Source: the human T2T-CHM13v2.0 reference genome, Homo sapiens
Assembly: GCF_009914755.1 (NCBI RefSeq)
Contig: NC_060947.1
Strand: one strand, 5' to 3'
DNA: 64,000 nucleotides
Part shown: piece by piece, positions 41,626 to 54,066 of the stretch
Layout of the letters: every line of letters begins with the position of its first letter
How positions within the stretch are numbered: position 1 is the first letter of the stretch
Program-made: the position numbers and the translations under genes
The notes under the pieces: generated by a model
Databases searched by the model: none
Seen by the model: only the letters and a program-made list of their open reading frames with translations
Told to the model about the DNA's origin: nothing

Positions 41626-44065
41626 AGAAAATGGTTCACGGCAAGGTAAGGTGGCTCAGACGTCAAATCTCAGCATGTTGAGTCATCGAGGCATGAGGAT
41701 TCCTTCAGCCCCAGAGTTCACGACCATCCTGGGCAACATAGGGAGACCCCGTTTTACAAAAAATTTTAAAAGCATATACCCAGGCATGGTGGAGCATGCA
41801 TGTAATTCCAGCTACTTGTGAGGCTGAGATGGAAGGATTGCTTGAGTCTGGGAGGTCAAGGCTACTGTGAGCCATGATTTCTCCACGGCACTACAGGCTG
41901 AGCAACGCAGTGAGGGCCTGTCTCAAATGAGACAAAAAGAAAAGAAAGTGTTTCAGGGCCAGCTGCGATGGGTGGTGAAGCTTCATTTCAAAGGTCAGCC
42001 ACTGCCATGGGACACTGATGCTAAGGATGGTTCTGTAGTAGTCATGGCTCTGGGACCCTGGGACTGATGTCCTTCCACTCGGGGAGGGCAGCCCTCTCCA
42101 GGCTGGGACATAGGAGGAAGGGGCCAGGCTAGATCATCAGGCTACGAGGGACAGCTGTCTGCTGTGGAATGGCAGATGAGATCAGGAGAAGGACAGCTGA
42201 AAGGAGGAGAGGGGAGACGCACTGCTCAGGCGAGGGGCCGGTCTCCTAAAAAGGGAAGACATTGGCCCTAAGTCGTGTCATTGCTCTAGGCTCCCGTGGA
42301 AGCACATGATGGTGCAAGAAGGAAACCAAGGCTGGTGGGAGGGGAACAATAGCTTGCATCATGCCCCATCCTATGTGTTCAGTGGCCCCTGAAAGGAGCC
42401 CATGCCTTTTGGGGATCGAAAAGGTCATTTCCTGACACAACTCCATTCACCACCCATGAGGAGCAGGGATTTGAGATAAACTGAGGCCTCTGGGGAGAAA
42501 GGCCAGTAAGAGTTGTGAGGTCTTCTCATAAGACGCACTGCCTTACCCTTATGGTGATTTTCACACTGTGTTCATCATGTCCTGTGTTTCTGTGTGCTCT
42601 GAGGTCGCTCTTCTCAACTTCATGTCTGTCCTGGGAAGAGTGGATATATTTCAGACAGTCTTGCTACCTAAGGGATTTAATAAAGTTTCTGGAAGTTCCC
42701 TAGGCTGGGCAGTGAATTCCCAGATCCTAGGACACCATTGTGGCCACACTACATAAGCTTCACTGGGTGTGATTCCTGGAATCTGCACTTTTAACAGATC
42801 TTGGGCTCTAACTTTCACAGAAGCTTGTCTGAGAACTACTAGAGCAGGGGAATAGTCTGCTTTCCCAGCTCCAAAGCTTCTTTCTCCTTTGTGAAGGTAT
42901 AGAAGGGACAGGTTTGTAGTATATAAAATTTTAAAAATGTATGTTTGTTCTATTTCATAGTTTGTGCTTTTTGCATCCTGTCTATCTTTATCTTACACGA
43001 TGCTGCAGATTCCCTTACATTTTCTTCTACAAGTGTTGTAACATTAGCTTTCACATTTAGTTCTATGAAGCATTTTGAGTTAACTTTTGTGTATGGTGTG
43101 AGGCAAAGTTTGAGGTTCATTTGTTTGCATGTCAATGTCCGACTGTTCCAGCACCACTCCTGGAATAAAACATCCTTCCCCACTGAATTCTCTTGGCACT
43201 TTATGGAAAAATCCATTTAACTTGAATATATAGATCTAGCTTCGGACTCTTATGCCTTTTCTTCTGCCAATATCACAGTGTCCTGATTAGCATAGTTGTC
43301 AAATGCATCTCGATATCAGGTAATGTGAGTCCTCCAATATTCTTGGTCCTTTATAAAATTGTTAGGCTATTCTAGTCCCTTTGCTTTCCCATATAAATTT
43401 TGAAGTCAGCTTGTCATTTTATAGCAACAAGAGGCTGCAGGGATTTTTATTGGTTTACACTAGACATATAGATTATTTGGGAGTAACTGACATATTGACA
43501 ATCTTGAGTCTTGCAATCCATTAATGTGGTATGTCTCTCTATTTATTTCAACGTGGTTTCATATTTTTCTGAAATGTTTTTTAGGCTTCTGAGCACAGGT
43601 CTTGCACATATTTTGTTAAATTTTACCACTACAGATTTCACGGGGGGGTTTGCTGCTATATTAAGGGATATCGACTTTCAATTTTCAATTGTTTGTTGCT
43701 GGCATATAAAAATAGCATTGACTTTTCCATGTTCATCTTGTACCATGTTACTTTGCTAAACTCACATGGAGGAAATTCCATTTGGCTAGGATGTAAATTT
43801 TTTATGTTGCTAGTTTCTAACTCCGGTTAATTGTTTTTTACAGAGTTTGTGTCTATGTTCATGAGTTACATTGGTCTGTCATGTTATTTTCTCATAATGT
43901 TGTCTGGTTTTGATATCAGGCTTGTGCTTGCTCTGTAAAATGCTTTGGAAAGTGTGGCCTCTCCTCAATTATCTTGAGTGGAGAACTGGTGTTATTTCTC
44001 CCAGAAACGTTTGGCAGAATTATCCAGTGAAGTCACCAGAAACATGAGGTTTAATTGAGAAATAT
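41625..44065 (+). repeat. Segmental duplication block B' (copy of 30308-33510)
   Basis: ORFs 31118-31306 and 42515-42703 are homologous; colinear L1M remnants. Confidence 0.85.
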
Positions 44066-44149
44066 CTTTGTTGAGTTTCTTTGTTGCTTTTACTGAATCC
44101 AATTCCTTTAATTGATATACGGCTATATATGTCGTTTATTTGTTTTTTA

Positions 44150-44340
44150 ACGTTTCATTTATGTCCATTTTTATGGGTATTTAGTAGGCACACATACTTG
44201 ACATGTTTTGATGCAGCTTGCAATTTGAAATGAGGACATGATGGAGATTGAGGTATTCCTCCTCTCAAGCATTTATCCACTGAGTTGCAAATAATCCAAT
44301 TATACTGTTCATGTTATTTTAAAATGCACAGTTACACTCT
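44150..44340 (-). mobile_element. L1MA 3' terminus (continues at 52268)
   Basis: CTCAAGCATTTATCC...GTTGCAAATAATCCAATTATACT...TTATTTTAAAATGCACAGTTA. Confidence 0.7.
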
Positions 44341-47300
44341 TTTTTTGTTTGTCTTTTTTAGCACTTGTCCACTGTTTATTCATTGGAAGGAAGGCCCGGT
44401 CCTAGGTAGACTCGACCTCCCCCGAGGAACCTTGGAGCCAAAGGCAGGAGGCTTCCAGAATGCTTAGACTCTGATCCTCCTTACTATCACCCTGAGACCT
44501 GTCTCACCAAAGCCTTCTTCTGTCCATGGTTTTCTCACTGGATCTACAAGGGAATCCCCCCACAAGTCTGGGGTCCAGTGTGGTCACTCCTGATGGTTTT
44601 CAAGAAGGGGAAGGCCAGGAACCTAGGGAAATACCTCATTTGGCCCGACCACAACTGGCCAGAGCAGGACAAACATGCCATGCCATGTCAGGCGCCCAGT
44701 TACCCAGCTGGAGGGAAAGTCAGTCCTGAGAGGGTGGAAGGGGCCAGTCACAAATCCCGGATAGATAGTGACCTGGGCTCCACAGGTGAGCTGGGCTCTG
44801 ATGGCTTTCCCTGCCTTTGGAAACAAGGAGGAGAAGTTTTTTGCAGAAAAAGCCTCTTTTCCTTCCAGAACTGCTGTTTTATGACAGCTGTTTCGGCAGT
44901 GAGTCTTGTGTCTGTTATGAGGGTGGGTCCCCCTCTTGGCCCTGCTCTACAGAAAATGATGGAGCAGGGCAAGCTGTCCTCAGTGAATGTACACCAGAAT
45001 GGCCTGGACGTGAGCCACGCCTTCAGAAACCATGCGTGCTCCAAGAGCGCTACAGCATCAAATAAGGCCTATGGAGGGTCCCCATCTGAAGGGCATCGGG
45101 GAGGTCTCTGAGTCGAGGTAGGTGTCTCAGAGAAGAGGGTGACAGCCCAGCCTACTGCCTGGAGTTCTGGCATTGGGTAGGGACTGCAGAGGGCCCGGGA
45201 ACGGGGAGGCTTTCAGGGAAGTCCTAGGGGCTCTGAACACCTCTGCTCCTTCCATGAGGACAAGGAAATGTTGTGCACCCAGACTGCCACCTTAATGTGC
45301 TTCCCACAGCACTCAATTGATGGGGCAAGGATGCACAGGAGACCGCCCCCCCTCCCCAGTCCAGTGACCCTGCTGCCCACAGTGCCTGGCTTCCCCGCTG
45401 TAGGGTTCTGACCCCTCCAGAATGATCCTGCTCGTCTCCTCTGCACAGGAGGCAGAGGCACGTCCCTGCAGGGCACAGAAACCATGCCGACATCCCACAG
45501 CAGGGGCTGGGGCTCAGAGCCGGCATCGTGTGCAGACTGGGCTAGGACTCACCTTGGGAGAGAACTTGGGGAGCCCCTTCTTCCAGGGGCCACATCCCAC
45601 TGAGATGAGTCGACCCCCATGAGGATCTGCAGGATCTTGTCTGACATAGCCTCATTGGGAAGGGGGGTCTGATACTGTGCAGAGTGGGTCCCCGGCACTA
45701 CAGACTGGGATCCCAATAGGCTCTGCTCACTCCACCAGCCATCAGCCTTGACAGGCCAGGTCCTCCCAGGCCTGCTGTCCCCACAGACCCCTTTTGGGCT
45801 CATCCTGAGGCTCTGGGAGGTCTGCCTTCTGCAGGGCGAGCACAAGCTCACAGCCAGGACATAAGCGGCATTCAAAGTTCATAGAAACTTGTCCCCATGT
45901 GCCTGAAGGTAGCAGGAGGACCACACAAGACAGACCTCAACTGTCCTGAGGGCAGCACTTGCACTGTCCACACGACCCTCTGCTCTGGCCTAGAGGGAAG
46001 GCCAAGCCAAGCCAGGCCTGGTCAGCTGTGCAGGGCACCGTGAGTCCTTCTGGAAACTGAGCCCACCCCTGACACGACACAGATGAAAGGCAGGAGCGTG
46101 GTGAGCATTCCCCTGCCTGGGCCTTCCCTGCATCCATGGCCTCCTGTGCACAGCTGGACCCCAGGGTTGTCCAAAAGGGGCCCAGCACTGCCCACTGGGA
46201 AGTGCCCAGAGCAGAAACGAGGTGAAGGCACAGACCTCTCCCAGGAGACCCCACCTGGCCTGATGTGCAGCCCCATTCCTAGAACATCTCCTGAAGCTGT
46301 CTCTCTTTGGCCCATGGGAGCTCCTTCAGGACATGCTGTCTCAGGCCTGGACTCTTGAGGACCACGTGGTGCTCAGGCCTCCATGGTCGAGTTGAGAAGG
46401 ACACACTGCGACCTGCATCCCACGTGGGCTCCAGCCTCCCGAGTCACCCTCTGAGGCATTAAATCATGGGGAGTGCCCAGAACCCTCCATCCCTACTCCC
46501 TGGGCCTTCCTCCTTTTCCTCTTCCTTCTCAAAGAAGTTTCTGAAAACAGGCCAGCTGGGCCCCAGGGCAGGTGCTAGACTCGCCTCAGTGACAGGGCAT
46601 GGGATGAGGGCAAGACCCCTCCAAGCCCCTCCCCCACACCCTTCCCCTCCTGGCCTAGAAGAACCCTAGGGGGCACTGGAGGGGTTGGTCCCATCTGTGC
46701 GAGCCAACACCCACAGCTGCCAGCACCAACGCCAGAGAACAGCAGGGGCGCCTCACTCACAAGCACCCCTCCAAGTGTGTCACGACGGCAAGCCTTGAGC
46801 CAGGGAATGGAGAGAATCAGTGTCTCAGACCCAGAGAGAGGATTCAGGGAAACGGTGCAGTAGGCCCCTTGGTGTGGGAAGTCATGGCATGGCGTGGATT
46901 GTCCGGGATGGCAGAGGGGCCCAGTGCCCAGGAGCGTCTCACGCGCTATGGAGACAGATCCTCATCTTAGGTGGCAAGGGGGCCAGGTGACAGGTAAGGC
47001 CTCTCCCAGCTGGGTTCTGCACCAGGGCTGAAGCCCAGACCGAGCCGCCCTGGGGTGAGGGTATGAGGCCTGGAGCCCCGAGCCAGCCTGAACCCTGGGG
47101 TCCGTCTCAGGAGCAGCCTGAGATGCTCTGACAGCAACCATGCCCCAAGCTGCACGCACCCCTCACTCTGGGTTCAGCAGCCTGTGGGTGTTTCCTCAGT
47201 GTCACACCAGGTGGGCCACTAGAGACCCCCAAAACTCCAGGGGCCCAGGTTCATGAGGCCCAGCCCTGCAAGGAACAAATGGGCTTGGTGGAGAAGTGGA

Positions 47301-50300
47301 CCAAATCTGCTTTTCTTTCAGCCAAACCCGCAAAGATCCCTAGGAAGGTCCTGGGCCTGGAGCGAGTGTCCCTGGCACCCAGGCCTCTGTGGGCATCCCT
47401 CAGCATGCAGACCCTCCCCAAGGGGGATGGGCTGGCCCTCCGTGGCCCACCAGCCCAGCTCCAGAAGTCCAGAAGCTGACCCTGAGGCCAAGGCCCAGCA
47501 GCATGAGGGGACTTCTGCAGAGCCCCGGGCAGCAGGACACTCTCTGGGGGCTCAGCCGCCCAGAGTGCAGCAAGTCTGTTCCTATCTCAGGACAGACCCC
47601 AGGATTTTGGGCGATTTCTGTGTGGGTGTCCTCTCCCAAAACTCCCCATGTACCTGGACATCCAGGGCTCATGGTTTCTACAGTGCAGCTTTGAGCAGGC
47701 ATGCTGAACTCCTATTCCTTCCACATCTGCTCTGGACATCGCCAGGACCAATGGACAGGCCCATCCCTGCAACCCCAGCAGGGCTCCAACAACCAGACCC
47801 GGCCCACCCCACTGAAAACCCAGAGGTAGGACCACAGAAACTCCCCTTGCATGGTGGCATCTGGATCTGACGTTTCTCTGAGGATAGTGACCTGCACAGC
47901 CCCAAAGCAGTCAGTACTACTGCTAGGCCATATGGGATCAATATCAATGGGGAAGCTGGGCCCTCAGAGGCTGCTGGAGGGGAGAGTGACTGTGGCATCT
48001 GCACAGCCCCAGCCAGCCAGCAGCATATCACATGTCCTCATGTCTGCCCATTCGTGTGACAGAGCCTCTCTCACATGGCAAGCGTCCTAGAGCCATGGGG
48101 CTGCGATCCAGCCCAAGCCCTCCCCAACCAAAGCCCTAAGAGAAAAAGGACCCAGGGGAGCCATGGGTGCCCCAGAAACAGCTAAGATGGATACACAGGG
48201 GACTGAGTTCCTGGGACACTGGCCAGAACTAGACTGTGGCCCAAGGCAGGGCAAGCCCCTTAAAGCAGTGTGTGGGTACGCAGGGCCTGTGCATGCCTGG
48301 CAGAGCCAAGCCAGTGACGTTACCAGGCTCAAAGAGCAACCATCCACGACGGCCATGGTGGGGCAGGAGCAGGTGGGCCAGCCCCCTGCCTCATCAACTC
48401 AAGGAATCAGGGATGGCTGGGTTCCCAGGCCCTGAGTGCCCACCACCTGACCATTAGTGAGGCAGAGACATGAGGCCAATCACATGATCCTGGGGCCCTG
48501 CTTCCATCTTACAAGAACTCCTTCAGCTCACAGCACCAAGAAAAATCCTGGGCAAGTGAGGGTCCAGGAGGCCAGGTTCCTACGTCTATTCTCCTTGTCA
48601 GGTGCATTTTGCCACTGGGAAAAGTCAGAAAAGGTGGCCTCAGTCCATGTAAGCAGGCTCCAAAGTAGGCACCATAGCTGCAGGGGGAGAAGGAGCTCCT
48701 GGCGGCACTGGAATAGGCTCTGGCAGGATCCCAGATTCTGTGATTCTGTCCCCCGCAACCTGTTTTTTGTTTTGTTTTTTTTTTTGTTTTTTTTTTTTTT
48801 TTTTCCCCTTGAGTGCTTGGAATCGTCCCCATTTTACACGGAGTCTGCAGCCATTGACAATCAGTTTATTAGAGGACTTGTCGGCACCCACTTCTGTAGC
48901 CACCCTGTGGAAAGCTGGATGAAAGGCACACTGCTATCTCTGCACAACGGTGACCATCCGGATCTCACCAACAGGCAGAGACAATTTCTTAAATCTGTCT
49001 GAGTAATGGTATCCGCCAGATCACCAACATACACTCTGGTGGAATCCTTCTCTGCTGGTGATTCAAGATGAAGCGTGGTTGAAGCCTGCTTTAGAAGCTT
49101 ATCTGCTACAGGGTCATTGTTTCCACAATATCGATCTTTAATATTTTGACCAGCAAGAGGGGGTCATCGGGATCTGCAGGCTTCTCATGTCTTTACGGAC
49201 AGTCCTCTCCTTTCACCTGGACAGAACAAATGTAAGGCTTATTCCTCAGCCAGTACAGTGTGGTCCGGGCCAGTTTGAGCAGCATCTCACTACTGGACGT
49301 GGCTTTCCCCAGCAGAGCAACTGGCCATGTTCTATCAGGGTTAGAAATTCCTCTGTCCATATCTGCAGTCACCTTTAAAGGCAAGTCTGTGTCATGAACC
49401 TGTATGGGCAGTCATACTCTAGGTCTAAGAGGCAAGTCTGACAGACATTTCCTGCAGGCTTGGCCCCCTTCAGTCTTCTTGGGATGCATGTGCTCCCCCG
49501 GGCACCAGCCAAACACTGAATGGCCTGACAGAGTTTGCATTTTTTCTCATAGTTCTCCTTGGTCATGTTTCTCTGAGACATATCTGGCACAGAATGGAGA
49601 AATCGACGTCCTCCCAGTTTTGCCTGTTTTAGGCGCTGGAACCCAGAGAGGTCGCCATCTTGAGAGGGTCGGCAGGCAGCAGTAGATTTCCAGGTGGGAG
49701 AGAGGACCCCCAGAATCCCACCAGACCCAGCTCTCCTTCCTGGTGCTGTTCTTGAGGCCCTGGATAATTGCCTTTCACCATACGTGAGTCATCTTTCTTG
49801 AGTCAAGGTGAACCTCACTTCCAAGGAATCCCCATTCTTGTAGGACACTCTGTGCTTCCTGGTCTCTCCAGGAGCTGGCTAAAATTCTATGCTTTTTCAT
49901 TGGAATACTGAGATAGACAGAAGTGCAGTTTTTTTACAAGTGTCTTTATCCAGCCATGGCATTAATTTCCCGTTTGGTAGGAGGACAATAGTCTTATTTT
50001 CATCAGTATGTGTAGTGCATGTTAGTGCACAGCATGAACCTTAGAGGAAGACTTCTACCTTGAGATGTGAAATGCATCAATACTTGTGTGGAGTTAATAA
50101 ACCTGCTCTACCTCCACAAGTGTCAGCTTCCTCACCCATACAATGGGGATCACACAACGACTTCTTCAAGTTGTTGCCAGAGTTACATTCACCAAGATAT
50201 TTAAAAGTACCTAACTACAAGGGTCCACAGCATTAATAAAACTGCATCAGACTTCAATGCACACAAAAGGAATAAAGTACATGCGTCCAAAGACGAGATG

Positions 50301-52267
50301 AGCAGCTTTCTAAGCAGCCTGATGAGCATCAGAATGAGATCTACATTTAAGTAGAATTCTTCACAGCTCCACTGAAGAGGACACACATGGGGGCTCCAAG
50401 AAGATAAGCACATGGCCATTGCACAGTAACTGGTGTAGTGTGGATGGAATCCCTGAAGACCCTCTGAAATATCATTACACAACTGGCTCTCAGGGAACAC
50501 TGGAACAAATCAGGAAACTCAGCAGATGCTACCAGGAACTGGGTGAGCAGAGGGGGGTCACATCCACAAATTTAAGCAGAAGACACCAAACCGCAAGGAG
50601 CTCCTGGCTCTGCAACAGCAGCTGTGGTGGCATCGGGGCCAATCTTCTGAGACAGCTGCTGTGGGATTGCTGAGACCATGTGTTTTTGCAGCCACACACC
50701 CAAAAGCAGTGCATTTGAAAACGGATCACAACACTCTCCTCTCCATTCATCTTTGTTTTAAGATGACTGATGATGGATACCCTCACATTGCAACATCCCC
50801 ACCAACACTTGTGGACAATCGTATTTAGAAAATCCCACCTAAAGAGGGAACAGTCAGGAGTAGGATGAGAATATTGAGGGATGGGGGAGAGATGCGGGTA
50901 CTTCACCCCAGACTCTGTTTGAAACAAGAGCCATTGTGCTGTGGTCTCCCTATACTTCCTCATTTTGCCGCATTCGTAGATGCCACCTGGTTTTTGTCCC
51001 TTTACTTACAAAGGTGCTGATGAGCCCATGGGTGGTTAATCCTGAAGGAGGAAATTCTTCACAAAATACAATAACAGAGTCTAATTTCAATGACCAGGTT
51101 TTTTAGTTTTTTTTTTTTTTTCATAGTATCCCACATTAAAAATCACAAATGAAACCTGTTGGAATGTGTGATATGAACAAAGTCTTATTTTCATGCAGAT
51201 TAACAACTTGGCTTTTACGGATTACACATAAAAGCATAAAAGCTGGTACCATCCCAGAATCAAAGGAACAGTCCCAGAGGACATACGGAATTTAGTGACA
51301 TCAATTATTAAGAGGCTACACGAAACTGGAAGTGCTCCCAGAAGTTTTCATTGTCTAGACAGAAAAATTCAAGACATCAGCCCCAGCGAGTAAAGGTACG
51401 TCCCCTGGCTGCCGTGGGTGATGAGCTTTTCATTCAAAGCAGAGATATGAAGCCTGAGGTGTCTCAAAGTCACCCCAAGTGCTCCACACCTTGAAAGTCA
51501 CTCCCACAAAGCTGGAACACCATCTGTTCCTGAAGGATCAGGTCATGACCTGTATCTTTGAGACACTGGGCAGTCAGGCCTCAGTTGAGATGAAGCCAAT
51601 GATTTCAAGTGTAAAATACCTAAAACCAAATCTTTAGGTATCTATTAGCAGCCCCGTCCACTTAAATGGGTTGGTGAACATGGCCCATCAGACAGACACA
51701 CACCTGAGCACTGGGGTTTTCTCCTCTGTTCTTAGCATCCCCTGGGTAAACCAGTAATTACCCTCCCTCATGCCTCAACGTTCACATCTGTGAAAAAGGT
51801 GATGGGGAGAGTGGCCTTTCCAGGAAAGCGGAGCACATGTCAACACCTGCTAAGCTCTGAATTTGTGCGTGGGCCCAGGCGACGGATTTCTCCAGAAAGC
51901 GGCTGAACTGGGACTCTGGCTGAAGAGAGCGGAGGTCAGCAGCACAATGCACAGCCCCTGGGACCTCAGGCCAGTTCCATAGCAGCTTAGGAAAGCAGTT
52001 GGGTCCCTAGGCTGGAGGAGGCCCGGTGCTCTGGAAAGATCCAGGGTGCGGGTGGAGAGGAAACGGAGCTGAGCAGTGAGAGGTGGGGTGAGCACCACGT
52101 CCATCCGGTTTGGGCAAAGGCAAGGTGTCCTTTGCAGTGTCACACCCTCCTCACTACTGAGCCCAGAACTGCCTCTCATGGCCTTCTCCAGACTCACTTC
52201 CCATGGCCAGGAGGTGGCACATGATCAGTAGCCGGCACATGATCAGTAGCCAGCATCATTCTTCTAT
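44341..52267 (-). mobile_element. Putative ~7.9-kb L1-retroposed RNA insertion containing the RBM22 retrocopy
   Basis: Poly(T) 44341-59; TTTATT (minus-strand AATAAA) 44375-80; flanks ACAGTTACACTCT (44328-40) and ACAGTTAACTTCT (52268-80); interrupts a colinear L1MA 3' end. Confidence 0.65.
48680..49680 (-). pseudogene. RBM22P: RBM22 processed pseudogene (intronless, disrupted, 3'-truncated)
   Basis: ATG at 49658: MATSLGSSA*NRQNWEDVDF; also [63 protein letters not shown]. These match RBM22 with stops and frameshifts and no introns. Pseudogene number not determinable. Confidence 0.93.
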
Positions 52268-53840
52268 ACAGTTAACTTCTTATTGACTACCGTCTCTCGG
52301 CTGTGCTATCAAATAGGACGTCTTATTCAGTCTTTCTAACTATGTTTTTGGTACCCATTACCATCCCCACATCCCCCAAGCTCCCCACTACCCTTCCCAG
52401 CCTCTGGTAACCATCCTTCTACTCTCTGTGTCCATGAGTTGAATTGTTTGGATTTTTAGATCCCACAAATAAGTGAGAACAATTGATGTTTGTCTTTCTG
52501 TGAATGGATTATTTCACTTAACATATTGATCTCCAGTTCCATTCATGGTTTTGCAAATGAGTGGCTCTCAATTTTTTTTATGGCTGAAGAGTACTCCCTT
52601 GTGTGTATGTGCCACATTTTCTTCATTCCTCTGTTGCTGGACGCTTAGGTTGCTTCCAAATCTTAGCTATTGTGAACAGTGCTGCAACACACATGGGAGT
52701 GCAGATATCTCTTCGATATACTGCTTTCATTTCTTTGGGGCATAAACCCAGCAATAGGATTGCTTGATCATATGGAAGCTCTATTTTTAGTTTGTAGAGA
52801 AACCTCCAAACTGTTCTCCGTAGTGGTTGTATATTACATTCCCACTGACAGTGTATGAGGGTTCCCTTTTCTCCACATCTTCGCCAGCATTTGGTATTTC
52901 GTGACTGTTGGTTAAAAGCCATTTGAACTGGAGTGAGATGATATCTCATTGTAGTTTTGATTGGCATTTCTCCAAAGATCAGCGATGCTGAGCACCTTCT
53001 CACATGCCTGTTTTCCATTTGTATGTCTTCCTTTGAGAAATGTCCACTCAAATCTTTTGGTGATTTCTTGATCAGATATTAGATTTTTTCCGATAGAATT
53101 GTTTGAGCTTCCCGTATACTCTGGTTATTAATCCCTCGTGAGACGGGTAGTTTGCAAATATTTTGTCCCATTCTGTGTGCTGTCTCTTCAATGTGTTGAT
53201 TGTATCCTCTGCTGTGCAGAAGCTTTTGAACTTGATGTGATCTCATTTGCCCGTGTTTGCTTTGGATGCCTGTGCTTGTGGGGCATTACTCAAGAAATTT
53301 TCGCCCAGGGAAATCTACAATCTAAATGTCTTGTAGAGTTTCCTCAATATTTTATTGTAGTAGTTTCATAGTTTGAAAGCTTAGATTTCTTTAACCCATT
53401 CTGATTTGATTTTTGTATATGGTGAGAGATAGGGGTCTAGATTCATTCTTCTGCATATGGATATCCAGGTTTCCCAGTACCATTTATTAATGAGACTGTC
53501 TTTCCCCAGTGTATGTTCTTGGCACCTTTGTGGAAAGTGAGTTCACTGTAAGTGTGTGGGTTTGTTTCTGCTTTCTGTATTCTGTTCAATGGGTCTATAC
53601 GTCTGTTTTAATGTCAGTACCGTGCTGTTTGGGTTACTATCTCTCTGTAGTATGATTTGAAGTCAGGTAATGTGAGTCCTCCAGATTTGTTCTTTTTTGT
53701 TTAGAATAGCTTGGCTATTCTGGGTCACTTGTGGTTCCATATGAATTTTGTGATTGCTTTATCCATTTCTGTGAGAAATGTCACTGTCTGTTGTTGTTTG
53801 TTTTTTTTTTTTAGGGATTGCACTGAATCTGCAGATTGCT
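52268..53840 (-). mobile_element. L1MA element, continuation (3' UTR and ORF2 end)
   Basis: ORF 52623-53051 (HFSKEDIQM...MRYHLTPV...[13 protein letters not shown]) is L1 ORF2. Confidence 0.9.
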
Positions 53841-54066
53841 TGCTTGTATATGTTTTAGAATGAGTTTTGCTAGCTAGTGTCCTTCAAATAATTTTTTCTT
53901 TCAATATAAATATAAGTTTTTGGATAACATTTCTTGAAAGGTTCCCTGTTGTACATTTAATATCTAAAGGATCTGTATTGACGTAACGACCCTCTGGGTT
54001 TGCTGATATTAATATTTGTAGTCTCTGTGTCTCCCTCTCTCATCAGTCTGGATAAAGGTTTATTAA

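What the first reader, a model, noticed from the sequence alone, without database searches (positions are those of the whole stretch)
44328..52280. ~7.9-kb block looks like one retroposed chimeric RNA inserted into an L1MA
Seen: an L1MA 3' end stops at ...AAAATGCACAGTTACACTCT (44340) and resumes colinearly at ACAGTTAACTTCTTATTGACTAC (52268). The ~13-bp flanks resemble each other (degenerate TSD). On the minus strand the block ends AATAAA + 15 nt + A-rich tail, and its 5' junction has an 18-bp tandem duplication (52216-52251). Established: these are hallmarks of L1 target-primed reverse transcription. Inference: an unusually long, apparently incompletely spliced transcript (unique 5' sequence + RBM22 retrocopy + GC-rich gene fragment) was retroposed as a unit, about 7 kb upstream of XAGE1.
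Basis: partly seen in the sequence, partly recalled or inferred. Interest (0 to 1): 0.75.

Follow-up and report, generated by a model that had tools for sequence, protein, structure and literature searches.

The report
Spliced retrocopy of a mosaic transcript
The 7.9-kb block is an old, dead, L1-made copy of one spliced RNA from a patchwork gene whose surviving relatives sit near the chromosome 7 centromere, so it is an unusually long but otherwise ordinary processed pseudogene.

Summary
An L1 3' UTR on the minus strand is split at 44341/52268. Both halves carry the same 14 nt (AAGAAGTTAACTGT / AAGAGTGTAACTGT), which is present once in 8 other L1 copies. The insert ends AATAAA + 15 nt + 18-20 nt A-rich tail.

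The interpretation (one RNA retroposed as a unit) is supported and can be sharpened. The whole block is collinear with genomic paralogs at chr7:57.65 and 56.72 Mb (76-81% identity). There it starts just after a CpG-rich region, and the sequence runs on past the poly(A) site without a tail. Those paralogs hold three introns (about 0.3, 0.7 and 2.6 kb) that the X copy lacks exactly at splice sites. So the RNA was spliced, not "incompletely spliced".

The RNA was not a template-switch chimera. The source gene is itself a mosaic:
- a CpG-island leader;
- an RPP40 intron piece plus two RPP40 exons;
- an older RBM22 retrocopy (codons 1-341);
- an antisense piece of a TBC-domain gene;
- a terminal module carrying AATAAA.

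RBM22P6, RBM22P11 and RBM22P7 are therefore second-hand RBM22 copies.

This is a new member of a known kind. No sign of function was found.

The parts
52268..52281 (-). 5' target-site duplication, AAGAAGTTAACTGT, which is the last 14 nt of the upstream L1 half
52282..53078 (-). Host L1, upstream half: end of ORF2 (residues 1069-1215 at 52626-53078) and the first part of the 3' UTR
   Evidence: ORF2p, E 3e-53; alignment with 8 L1 copies
52257..52267 (-). 11 nt (ATAGAAGAATG) between the TSD and the start of homology. They are either extra nucleotides at the 5' junction or diverged 5' nucleotides of the RNA
   Evidence: read by eye against the chr7 paralogs
50040..52256 (-). Exon 1 of the retroposed RNA. 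A leader module (about 52256-51250) sits just downstream of a CpG-rich region in the chr7 paralogs. It is followed by sequence derived from an RPP40 intron (51248-50099, matching chr6:4871322-4870165) and ends at the donor CTCTAAG|GT. It contains the 18-nt tandem duplication at 52216-52255
49971..50039 (-). Exon 2, an RPP40-derived exon (84% to chr6:4869619-4869545) that codes RPP40 residues from 90 to about 113
49880..49970 (-). Exon 3, the next RPP40-derived exon (matches chr6:4868891-4868818; read with exon 2 it codes on to RPP40 residue 129). It ends at RPP40's native donor position (ATTTA|GTAAGT in RPP40). It carries a 5-nt deletion that the RBM22P7 copy does not have
44360..49879 (-). 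Exon 4, the 5.5-kb terminal exon. It starts at the acceptor TCTTCCAG|GCCAG of the chr7 paralogs and ends 15 nt after AATAAA
48677..49734 (-). RBM22 retrocopy inside exon 4: 5' UTR, ATG at 49658, and codons up to residue 341 of 420, with stops and frameshifts. The A-run at 48762-48805 is the expanded GKEKEK-coding stretch, not a tail. The RBM22P6 annotation (48789-49728) stops at that run
45175..48679 (-). GC-rich module. It has a paralog at chr6:29404601-29408115 (66%). The part 47330-45175 has paralogs (64-67%) at sites on chr17 and chr1 that lie next to RabGAP-TBC exons on the opposite strand, so it is an antisense 3' part of a TBC-domain gene. No Pfam domain is left in the X copy
44360..45074 (-). 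Terminal module, with paralogs (68-69%) at several chr9 sites and at chr2:95.27 Mb. It carries the poly(A) signal AATAAA at 44375-44380
44342..44359 (-). [quoted passage not shown] It is absent from the chr7 and chr16 genomic paralogs
44328..44341 (-). 3' target-site duplication, AAGAGTGTAACTGT
44115..44327 (-). Host L1, downstream half: the rest of the 3' UTR. Its end near 44115 is approximate and read by eye

Best explanation
The block is a processed (spliced, polyadenylated) retrocopy of one roughly 7.9-kb four-exon RNA. The L1 machinery inserted it into the 3' UTR of an older L1 on the X chromosome tens of millions of years ago.

The source was a non-coding mosaic gene. Its present-day DNA-level paralogs lie at chr7:57.65, 56.72, 64.26 and 65.11 Mb and on chr16. 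That gene reads from a CpG-island promoter through four modules. First comes a duplicated piece of RPP40 (a cryptic donor in an intron, then two RPP40 exons). Next is an older, 3'-truncated RBM22 retrocopy. Then comes an antisense fragment of a TBC-domain gene, and last a module that supplies AATAAA.

Shown here: collinearity over the whole block, loss of three introns at splice sites, a non-templated A tail, the TSD and a contiguous host L1.

Inferred: the start of the RNA is the real transcription start, the enzyme was L1 ORF2p, and the date.

Later events: part of the copy was duplicated (RBM22P7), and the whole region was duplicated as the XAGE1 palindrome arm (RBM22P11). The copy looks dead, with no long ORF and CpG observed/expected about 0.2.
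For: Collinearity. The whole block (window 52237-44360 by BLAST; 52256 by eye) is collinear with chr7:57648492-57659738 and chr7:56716503-56728050 at 76-81% identity, and the L1 flanks do not match there.

5' end. Upstream of the start of homology the chr7 loci are CpG-rich (GC 0.58-0.63, observed/expected 0.61-0.73).

3' end. chr7a has AATAAA + GAGTGAGCAAGAGCT and then CAGGTTGTG..., where X has the A tail. The chr16 paralog also runs on without a tail.

Introns. Three chr7-only segments have intron ends: GTATGA...TTCCAG (about 310 nt), GTAACA...TTCATAG (about 720 nt) and ...TCTTCCAG (about 2.6 kb, containing Alus).

RPP40 origin. Exons 2+3 read RPP40 residues 90-129 without a break (6ahr_L, E 1e-9; PF08584, E 8e-5). 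In the real RPP40 gene (chr6; PF08584 scan) the same pieces are about 0.5 and 0.65 kb apart. The chr7 copies also keep the RPP40 intron sequence that flanks these exons. The exon 3 to exon 4 junction (TTTA|GCCAG) uses RPP40's native donor position, ATTTA|GTAAGT.

RBM22 context. The RBM22 piece sits in the same context on chr7, in one 2841-nt alignment that crosses both of its ends.

Host L1 and TSD.

Divergence. K2P is 0.21 between X and each of 4 chr7 paralogs, and 0.05-0.10 among the chr7 paralogs. The TSD differs at 3 of 14 positions, which fits that divergence.

Hallmarks. The three hallmarks (intronless copy, poly(A) remnant, TSD) are as listed in PMC5470649, sections 5-6 (passages read).
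Against: No surviving paralog can be the direct donor. All are about 20% diverged.

All 4 chr7 paralogs now read TTTA|GAAGCA at the third donor, with the T of GT missing. The donor must therefore be assumed intact in the ancestor.

The chr7 paralogs also lack about 310 nt that X and the chr6:29.40 Mb paralog keep.

A 2.2-kb first exon is unusual, and no transcript data were available to confirm the transcription start, the exon structure or use of the poly(A) site.

No outgroup genome was available to show an empty site.

The 11 nt at the 5' junction are unexplained.
Confidence: 0.92

Rival explanations
1. DNA-level (segmental) duplication. A piece of a chr7-like pericentromeric duplicon was pasted into the L1, and its ends only look like a retrocopy by coincidence.
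For: The family is spread by DNA-level duplication elsewhere: chr7 x4, chr16, chr9 and the acrocentric short arms. The block itself was later copied as DNA (palindrome arm, 100% identity over the 11 kb tested).
Against: It would need three precise deletions at splice sites, two of them at introns inherited from RPP40. It would also need an end exactly 15 nt after AATAAA with a non-templated A tail, and a 14-nt duplication of the target.
Confidence: 0.03
2. Template-switch chimera. The L1 reverse transcriptase jumped between separate RNAs (a GC-rich RNA, RBM22 mRNA, a 5' RNA) during a single insertion.
For: The block joins sequences of unrelated origin. Chimeric L1-mediated insertions are a known class (PMC13174262, abstract in the search listing; PMC5470649, section 5, passages).
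Against: The same junctions exist in genomic DNA on chr7, with introns and a promoter region. RBM22 is cut at residue 341 and joined to the GC-rich module at the same point in chr7 and X.
Confidence: 0.01
3. Nested insertions on X. A long retrocopy landed in the L1 first, and an RBM22 processed pseudogene inserted into it later, as the name RBM22P6 implies.
For: The annotation treats 48789-49728 as an RBM22 pseudogene, and an A-run follows it (TRF).
Against: RBM22 homology continues past the A-run to residue 341. The RBM22 piece has no tail or TSD of its own. It has the same flanks on chr7 and at chr16:32.25 Mb. By contrast, the independent RBM22 retrocopies on chr6 and chr18 start at the mRNA 5' end (query position 67-70).
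Confidence: 0.01
4. Retrocopy of a partly unspliced pre-mRNA.
For: Exon 1 contains 1.15 kb that is intron sequence in RPP40. The terminal exon contains antisense gene DNA with its introns.
Against: Relative to the source gene family, those stretches lie between a promoter and a used donor, or inside the last exon. All three introns that can be recognised in the chr7 paralogs are gone. Whether further introns existed cannot be told without RNA data.
Confidence: 0.15

Closest known systems
L1-mediated processed pseudogene (retrocopy) of a spliced RNA
   Same: It has no introns relative to the source, a poly(A) remnant after AATAAA, a 14-nt TSD, a T-rich nick site (TCTT/AT on the primed strand), and a promoter that was left behind.
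   Different: At 7.9 kb it is much longer than the processed pseudogenes I recall as typical (recalled, not checked here). The source is a non-coding mosaic of duplicons rather than a protein-coding gene.
Chimeric retrogene or fusion transcript, in which a retrocopy recruits upstream exons (PMC5470649, section 12, passages read)
   Same: In the source gene an RBM22 retrocopy is transcribed behind exons borrowed from another gene (RPP40) and a foreign CpG-island promoter.
   Different: No reading frame joins the parts, and RBM22 is truncated and broken. Here the fusion transcript was itself retroposed again.
Direct RBM22 processed pseudogenes (for example the copies at chr6:44.93 Mb and chr18:27.61 Mb found)
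   Same: They contain intron-less RBM22 mRNA sequence.
   Different: Those copies start at the RBM22 mRNA 5' end. RBM22P6, RBM22P11 and RBM22P7 carry RBM22 only as a passenger inside another RNA, sharing flanks with the chr7 and chr16 copies.
L1 template-switch chimeras (U6-L1 and mRNA-L1 types)
   Same: Unrelated RNA-derived sequences are joined and flanked by one TSD.
   Different: Here the junctions pre-exist in genomic DNA, so no switch is needed.

Membership tests
L1-mediated processed retrocopy | Introns of the source are absent, removed exactly at splice sites | tested here: met
   3 of 3 recognisable introns of the chr7 paralogs are absent. Two of them are RPP40's own introns.
L1-mediated processed retrocopy | A poly(A) remnant at the 3' end, after a poly(A) signal and not templated in the source | tested here: met
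   AATAAA + 15 nt + an 18-20 nt A-rich run. The chr7a and chr16 paralogs continue with non-A sequence.
L1-mediated processed retrocopy | Target-site duplication flanking the insert, with the target contiguous once the insert is removed | tested here: met
   A 14-nt TSD, 11 of 14 identical. Both copies align to the same columns of 8 other L1 copies.
L1-mediated processed retrocopy | Homology to the source stops at the transcript ends, with the promoter not copied | tested here: met
   BLAST of an 11-kb stretch against 26-kb chr7 loci matches only window 52237-44360, apart from one unrelated L1 hit. A CpG-rich region lies just upstream in chr7.
L1-mediated processed retrocopy | An empty (pre-insertion) site in an outgroup species | not testable with these tools
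   No primate or other mammalian genome is held.
L1-mediated processed retrocopy | The source RNA exists with this exon structure | not testable with these tools
   No transcript data or gene table for chr7 was available. The structure is inferred from splice-site motifs and the RPP40 exon boundaries.
Segmental (DNA) duplication from the chr7 family | Introns and flanks are co-duplicated | tested here: not met
   Introns are absent and flanks are unrelated. The feature is met only for the later palindrome-arm copy on X.
Direct RBM22 processed pseudogene | The RBM22 mRNA copy has its own 3' tail and TSD, and flanks unrelated to other copies | tested here: not met
   The A-run is internal, because RBM22 continues to residue 341. 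Flanks are shared with the chr7 and chr16:32.25 Mb copies.
Host repeat = L1, subfamily L1MA | L1 ORF2 and 3' UTR sequence; subfamily-diagnostic 3' UTR | tested here: inconclusive
   L1 is confirmed (ORF2p E 3e-53; 80-85% identity to other copies). The subfamily could not be assigned because no repeat library was available.

The most novel reading that the evidence does not exclude
The X copy is a molecular fossil of a germline-expressed fusion transcript (CpG-island leader, RPP40 exons, RBM22 retrocopy, antisense TBC-gene DNA) from an ancestral pericentromeric duplicon. It records a splice donor that all four surviving chr7 paralogs have since lost. It also makes RBM22P6, RBM22P11 and RBM22P7 twice-retroposed RBM22 sequence: mRNA to DNA, to fusion RNA, to DNA. 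My literature searches found no description of such a second-order RBM22 copy.
Probability: 0.85. Interest if true: 0.3.

Novelty: new member of a known kind. Interest (0 to 1): 0.3.

Why it matters
It corrects how three annotated pseudogenes should be read. RBM22P6, RBM22P11 and RBM22P7 are not direct RBM22 retrocopies. They are pieces of a retrocopy of a mosaic non-coding RNA.

It also shows that a pericentromeric duplicon mosaic was transcribed, spliced and polyadenylated in the germline tens of millions of years ago. The copy preserves about 310 nt and a splice donor that the living chr7 paralogs have lost.

At 7.9 kb, with three intron losses, a TSD and a tail, it is a clean worked example of a very long L1-mediated retrocopy. 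Nothing suggests a present function, or any bearing on XAGE1 beyond being carried along in its palindrome.

Tried and rejected
Pfam scans:
- 115 stop-to-stop ORFs (45 aa or longer, both strands) of the block gave only RBM22 traces and the RPP40 hit. There was no domain in the GC-rich part.
- 16 ORFs of the chr6:29.40 Mb paralog gave nothing.
- 63 ORFs of a chr17 paralog (L009) gave one weak antisense RabGAP-TBC hit (E 0.008, below the cut-off). I trusted it only after the genome scan placed TBC exons next to 8 of the paralog sites.
- 7 ORFs upstream of the insert gave nothing. The PDB search identified the L1 instead.

Rfam on 43500-53500 gave 0 matches.

I looked for other L1 copies spanning the junction in sequence already held and found none. 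They had to be fetched from the genome.

The intron 3 query was swamped by Alu hits.

I tested the chr16:38.98 Mb copy as a possible second retrocopy. It has no tail and continues like chr7, so it is a genomic paralog.

Papers:
- RBM22P6 appears only in one paper, found in a search listing. I did not open it.
- Six phrases for second-order or lncRNA retrocopies found 0 papers.

I recalled TP53TG3 as a possible identity for the 5' leader but did not test it, so I dropped the idea.
Full report
**1. The observation**

On the minus strand the left boundary reads ...CAATAAGAAGTTAACTGT | ATAGAAGAATG | ATGCTGGCTACTGATC... The right boundary reads ...AATGAATAAA CAGTGGACAAGTGCT AAAAAAGACAAACAAAAAAA GAGTGTAACTGTGCATTTTAAAATAAC... 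Exact positions come:
- 5' TSD at 52281-52268;
- start of the copy at 52256;
- AATAAA at 44380-44375;
- 3' TSD at 44341-44328.

TRF finds the 18-nt tandem duplication at 52216-52255 (2.2 copies).

The flank is an L1 on the minus strand. Window 52626-53078 (-) matches LINE-1 ORF2p residues 1069-1215 of 1275 (E 3e-53), so the break lies in the 3' UTR. The 241-nt downstream flank has 843 first-look candidates in the genome, of which 40 were scored. Of the 38 that are not the two X copies, most start at query position 7. I fetched 8 of these copies with about 220 nt of upstream sequence and aligned them with both flanks. In these copies the sequence runs ...AGTCAATAAT(AACT)TAACTGTACATTTTAAAATAAC... 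without interruption. The X 5' flank ends, and the X 3' flank begins, on the same columns. The two L1 halves are therefore contiguous, and 14 nt are present twice (11 of 14 identical). The 'L1MA' label itself could not be tested.

**2. What the block is: relatives elsewhere in the genome**

The window's genome can be searched. Three queries covering the block each found the following:
- an identical inverted copy at chrX:51809027-51816934;
- two chr7 loci, chr7:57648492-57659738 and chr7:56716503-56728050, that contain all three parts in the same order and orientation at 76-81% identity.

BLAST of window 54000-43000 against 26 kb around each chr7 locus gives a collinear chain from window 52237 to 44360 and nothing in the L1 flanks. 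The one extra hit is an unrelated L1 fragment.

At the 5' end, the chr7 sequence upstream of the start of homology is CpG-rich (GC 0.58-0.63, CpG observed/expected 0.61-0.73 over 1 kb). This looks like a promoter island. At the 3' end, chr7a reads CCCCTGAATAAAGAGTGAGCAAGAGCT and then CAGGTTGTGAACTC..., exactly where X has its A-rich run. A chr16 paralog also runs on, with sequence homologous to the chr7 downstream region and no tail. So the copy spans from a likely transcription start to a cleavage site, and the tail is not templated.

**3. The RNA was spliced**

The chr7 loci contain three segments that X lacks:
- about 310 nt bounded by CTCTAAG|GTATGA (GCATGA in the second locus) and TTCCAG|GTTC;
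- about 720 nt bounded by CCAAATG|GTAACA and TTCATAG|GGAAATT;
- about 2.6 kb, holding three or four Alu-like insertions (read by eye), ending TCTTCCAG|GCCAG.

In X the flanking exons are joined exactly at these points. That gives four exons: E1 52256-50040, E2 50039-49971, E3 49970-49880 and E4 49879-44360.

Two of these introns are inherited from RPP40. The 47-aa frame across E2+E3 matches RPP40 residues 90-129 (PDB 6ahr_L, E 1e-9; Pfam PF08584, E 8e-5). A genome scan with PF08584 places the real RPP40 exons at chr6:4864131-4868891.

Against chr6:4868600-4871400 the X sequence falls into three separated pieces:
- window 51248-50099 matches chr6:4871322-4870165. This is RPP40 intron sequence and contains what I recognise by eye as a MIR element;
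- E2 matches chr6:4869619-4869545 (84%);
- E3 matches chr6:4868891-4868818 (76%).

The chr7 paralogs also keep RPP40 intron sequence around E2 and E3. They are therefore DNA copies of RPP40's 5' part, and X is the spliced version.

RPP40's native donor after the E3 homolog is ATTTA|GTAAGT, and the X junction is TTTA|GCCAG. All four chr7 paralogs now read TTTA|GAAGCA, with the T lost. The retrocopy thus records splicing from a donor that has since decayed, or that was intact only in the true donor locus.

**4. The RNA was a read-through of a mosaic gene, not a chimera made during retroposition**

*RBM22.* Independent RBM22 retrocopies on chr6 and chr18 begin at position 67-70 of the query, which sets the RBM22 5' boundary at about window 49734. 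The ATG is at 49658.

The A-run at 48762-48805, where the RBM22P6 annotation stops, is not a tail. The frame after it still aligns to RBM22 up to residue 341 (5mqf_P, E 1e-11). The run replaces the GKEKEK-coding stretch.

RBM22 homology ends at about 48677. That is also where the chr6:29.40 Mb paralog of the GC-rich module begins (48679). A single 2841-nt alignment with chr7 crosses both RBM22 boundaries, so the RBM22 piece was already part of the source locus.

The real RBM22 exons on chr5 are 80-86% identical to the X copy.

*GC-rich module.* No Pfam domain survives in X or in the chr6 paralog.

Window 47330-45175 has paralogs at 64-67% at many chr17 sites and at chr1:15.43 Mb. In 8 of these a RabGAP-TBC exon (PF00566 positions 82-122) lies 1-4 kb away on the opposite strand, upstream in gene sense. 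One chr17 paralog keeps a weak antisense TBC C-terminal hit. So the module is an antisense piece of the 3' part of a TBC-domain gene.

From the map positions I recall this as the TBC1D3/USP6 family. The name comes from memory, not from a tool.

*Other modules.* The last 0.7 kb (45074-44360) has its own paralogs at several chr9 sites and at chr2:95.27 Mb. The leader has paralogs on chr16, chr9, chr19 and the acrocentric short arms.

**5. Timing and later history**

In exon 1, X is equally far from the four chr7 paralogs (K2P 0.21; 0.18 without CpG columns). The chr7 paralogs differ from each other by 0.05-0.10. The retroposition therefore predates the chr7 duplications.

With recalled neutral rates of 1-2.2e-9 per site per year, this is roughly 40-90 million years. 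The 3 of 14 TSD mismatches and the decayed tail fit that age.

X and the chr6:29.40 Mb paralog keep about 310 nt (within 47138-46763) that both chr7 copies lack.

A 2.26-kb fragment at chrX:51774420-51776659 contains RBM22P7. It is 86.7% identical to window 51572-49344 and carries the same three exon junctions. It still has the CAAGGT that X lost through a 5-nt deletion. Its flanks are unrelated. It is either an older DNA duplicate of this retrocopy or a second retrocopy of the same isoform, and I cannot tell which.

The palindrome-arm copy (RBM22P11) is 100% identical over all 11 kb tested, L1 flanks included.

**6. Function**

The block has no ORF above 233 aa and none with a domain. CpG observed/expected is about 0.2 throughout, there are no Rfam matches, and RBM22 is broken by stops. 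I read it as a dead retrocopy. Expression could not be checked.

**7. Known or new**

The three hallmarks are those of L1-mediated retrocopies: an intron-less copy, a poly(A) remnant and a TSD (PMC5470649, passages from sections 5, 6 and 12). What is unusual here is the length, the non-coding mosaic source, and the fact that the RBM22 sequence has gone through reverse transcription twice.

In the searched library, RBM22P6 appears only in one paper's text, found in the search listing and not opened. Phrases for second-order or lncRNA retrocopies found nothing. Subscription journals and supplements were not covered.

**Verdict:** real feature, interpretation essentially right, a new member of a known kind, modest interest.

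Noticed in passing
window 48677-48805: The RBM22P6 annotation (48789-49728) stops at an internal A-run. RBM22 homology continues about 110 nt further, to residue 341. The A-run is an expanded lysine/glutamate-coding stretch, not a retrocopy tail.
   Followed up: yes
L033-L038, L042, L043 (chr7:57.65, 56.72, 64.26, 65.11 Mb): All four chr7 paralogs have lost the T of the GT donor after the second RPP40-derived exon (TTTA|GAAGCA, against ATTTA|GTAAGT in RPP40). One of them also has GC instead of GT at the first donor and has lost the AATAAA.
   Followed up: partly
L039:2420-4659 (chrX:51774420-51776659, just beyond the window end): A partial copy (RBM22P7) shares the three exon junctions at 86.7% identity. 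It is bounded by an Alu with a GGAA-type simple repeat on one side and by unrelated sequence on the other. Whether it is a DNA duplicate or a second retrocopy is open.
   Followed up: partly
L040/L041 (chrX:51804000-51823999): The inverted-repeat arm is 100% identical to window 43000-54000 over all 11 kb tested, so the XAGE1 palindrome arms are identical across this stretch.
   Followed up: partly
window 45175-47330, and the chr17 sites: At least 8 paralog sites of the GC-rich module lie 1-4 kb from a RabGAP-TBC exon on the opposite strand (chr17:37.1-39.05 Mb cluster, chr17:5.03, 15.65, 28.37, 60.88 and 63.14 Mb, chr1:15.43 Mb). The contiguous 2.2-kb homology implies that exons and introns of that gene family are conserved together at about 65%.
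   Followed up: partly
one search hits on chr13, 14, 15, 21, 22 (short arms) and chr3:75.69, chr10:134.60 Mb: Parts of the exon 1 leader (query 92-807 and 628-1855) recur at 71-73% on all five acrocentric short arms, at chr3:75.69 Mb and at chr10:134.60 Mb. The leader therefore belongs to a widely dispersed duplicon.
   Followed up: no
window 43900-44110: Just downstream of the host L1's 3' end, the minus strand reads like another L1 ORF2 fragment. This was recognised by eye only.
   Followed up: no
one search hits at chr20:6260544, chr13:58482735, chrX:25175962, chr17:21.50 and 23.12 Mb: Further Rpp40-like stretches outside the RPP40 gene, some with open frames of 58-164 aa. They are presumably RPP40 pseudogenes and were not examined.
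   Followed up: no
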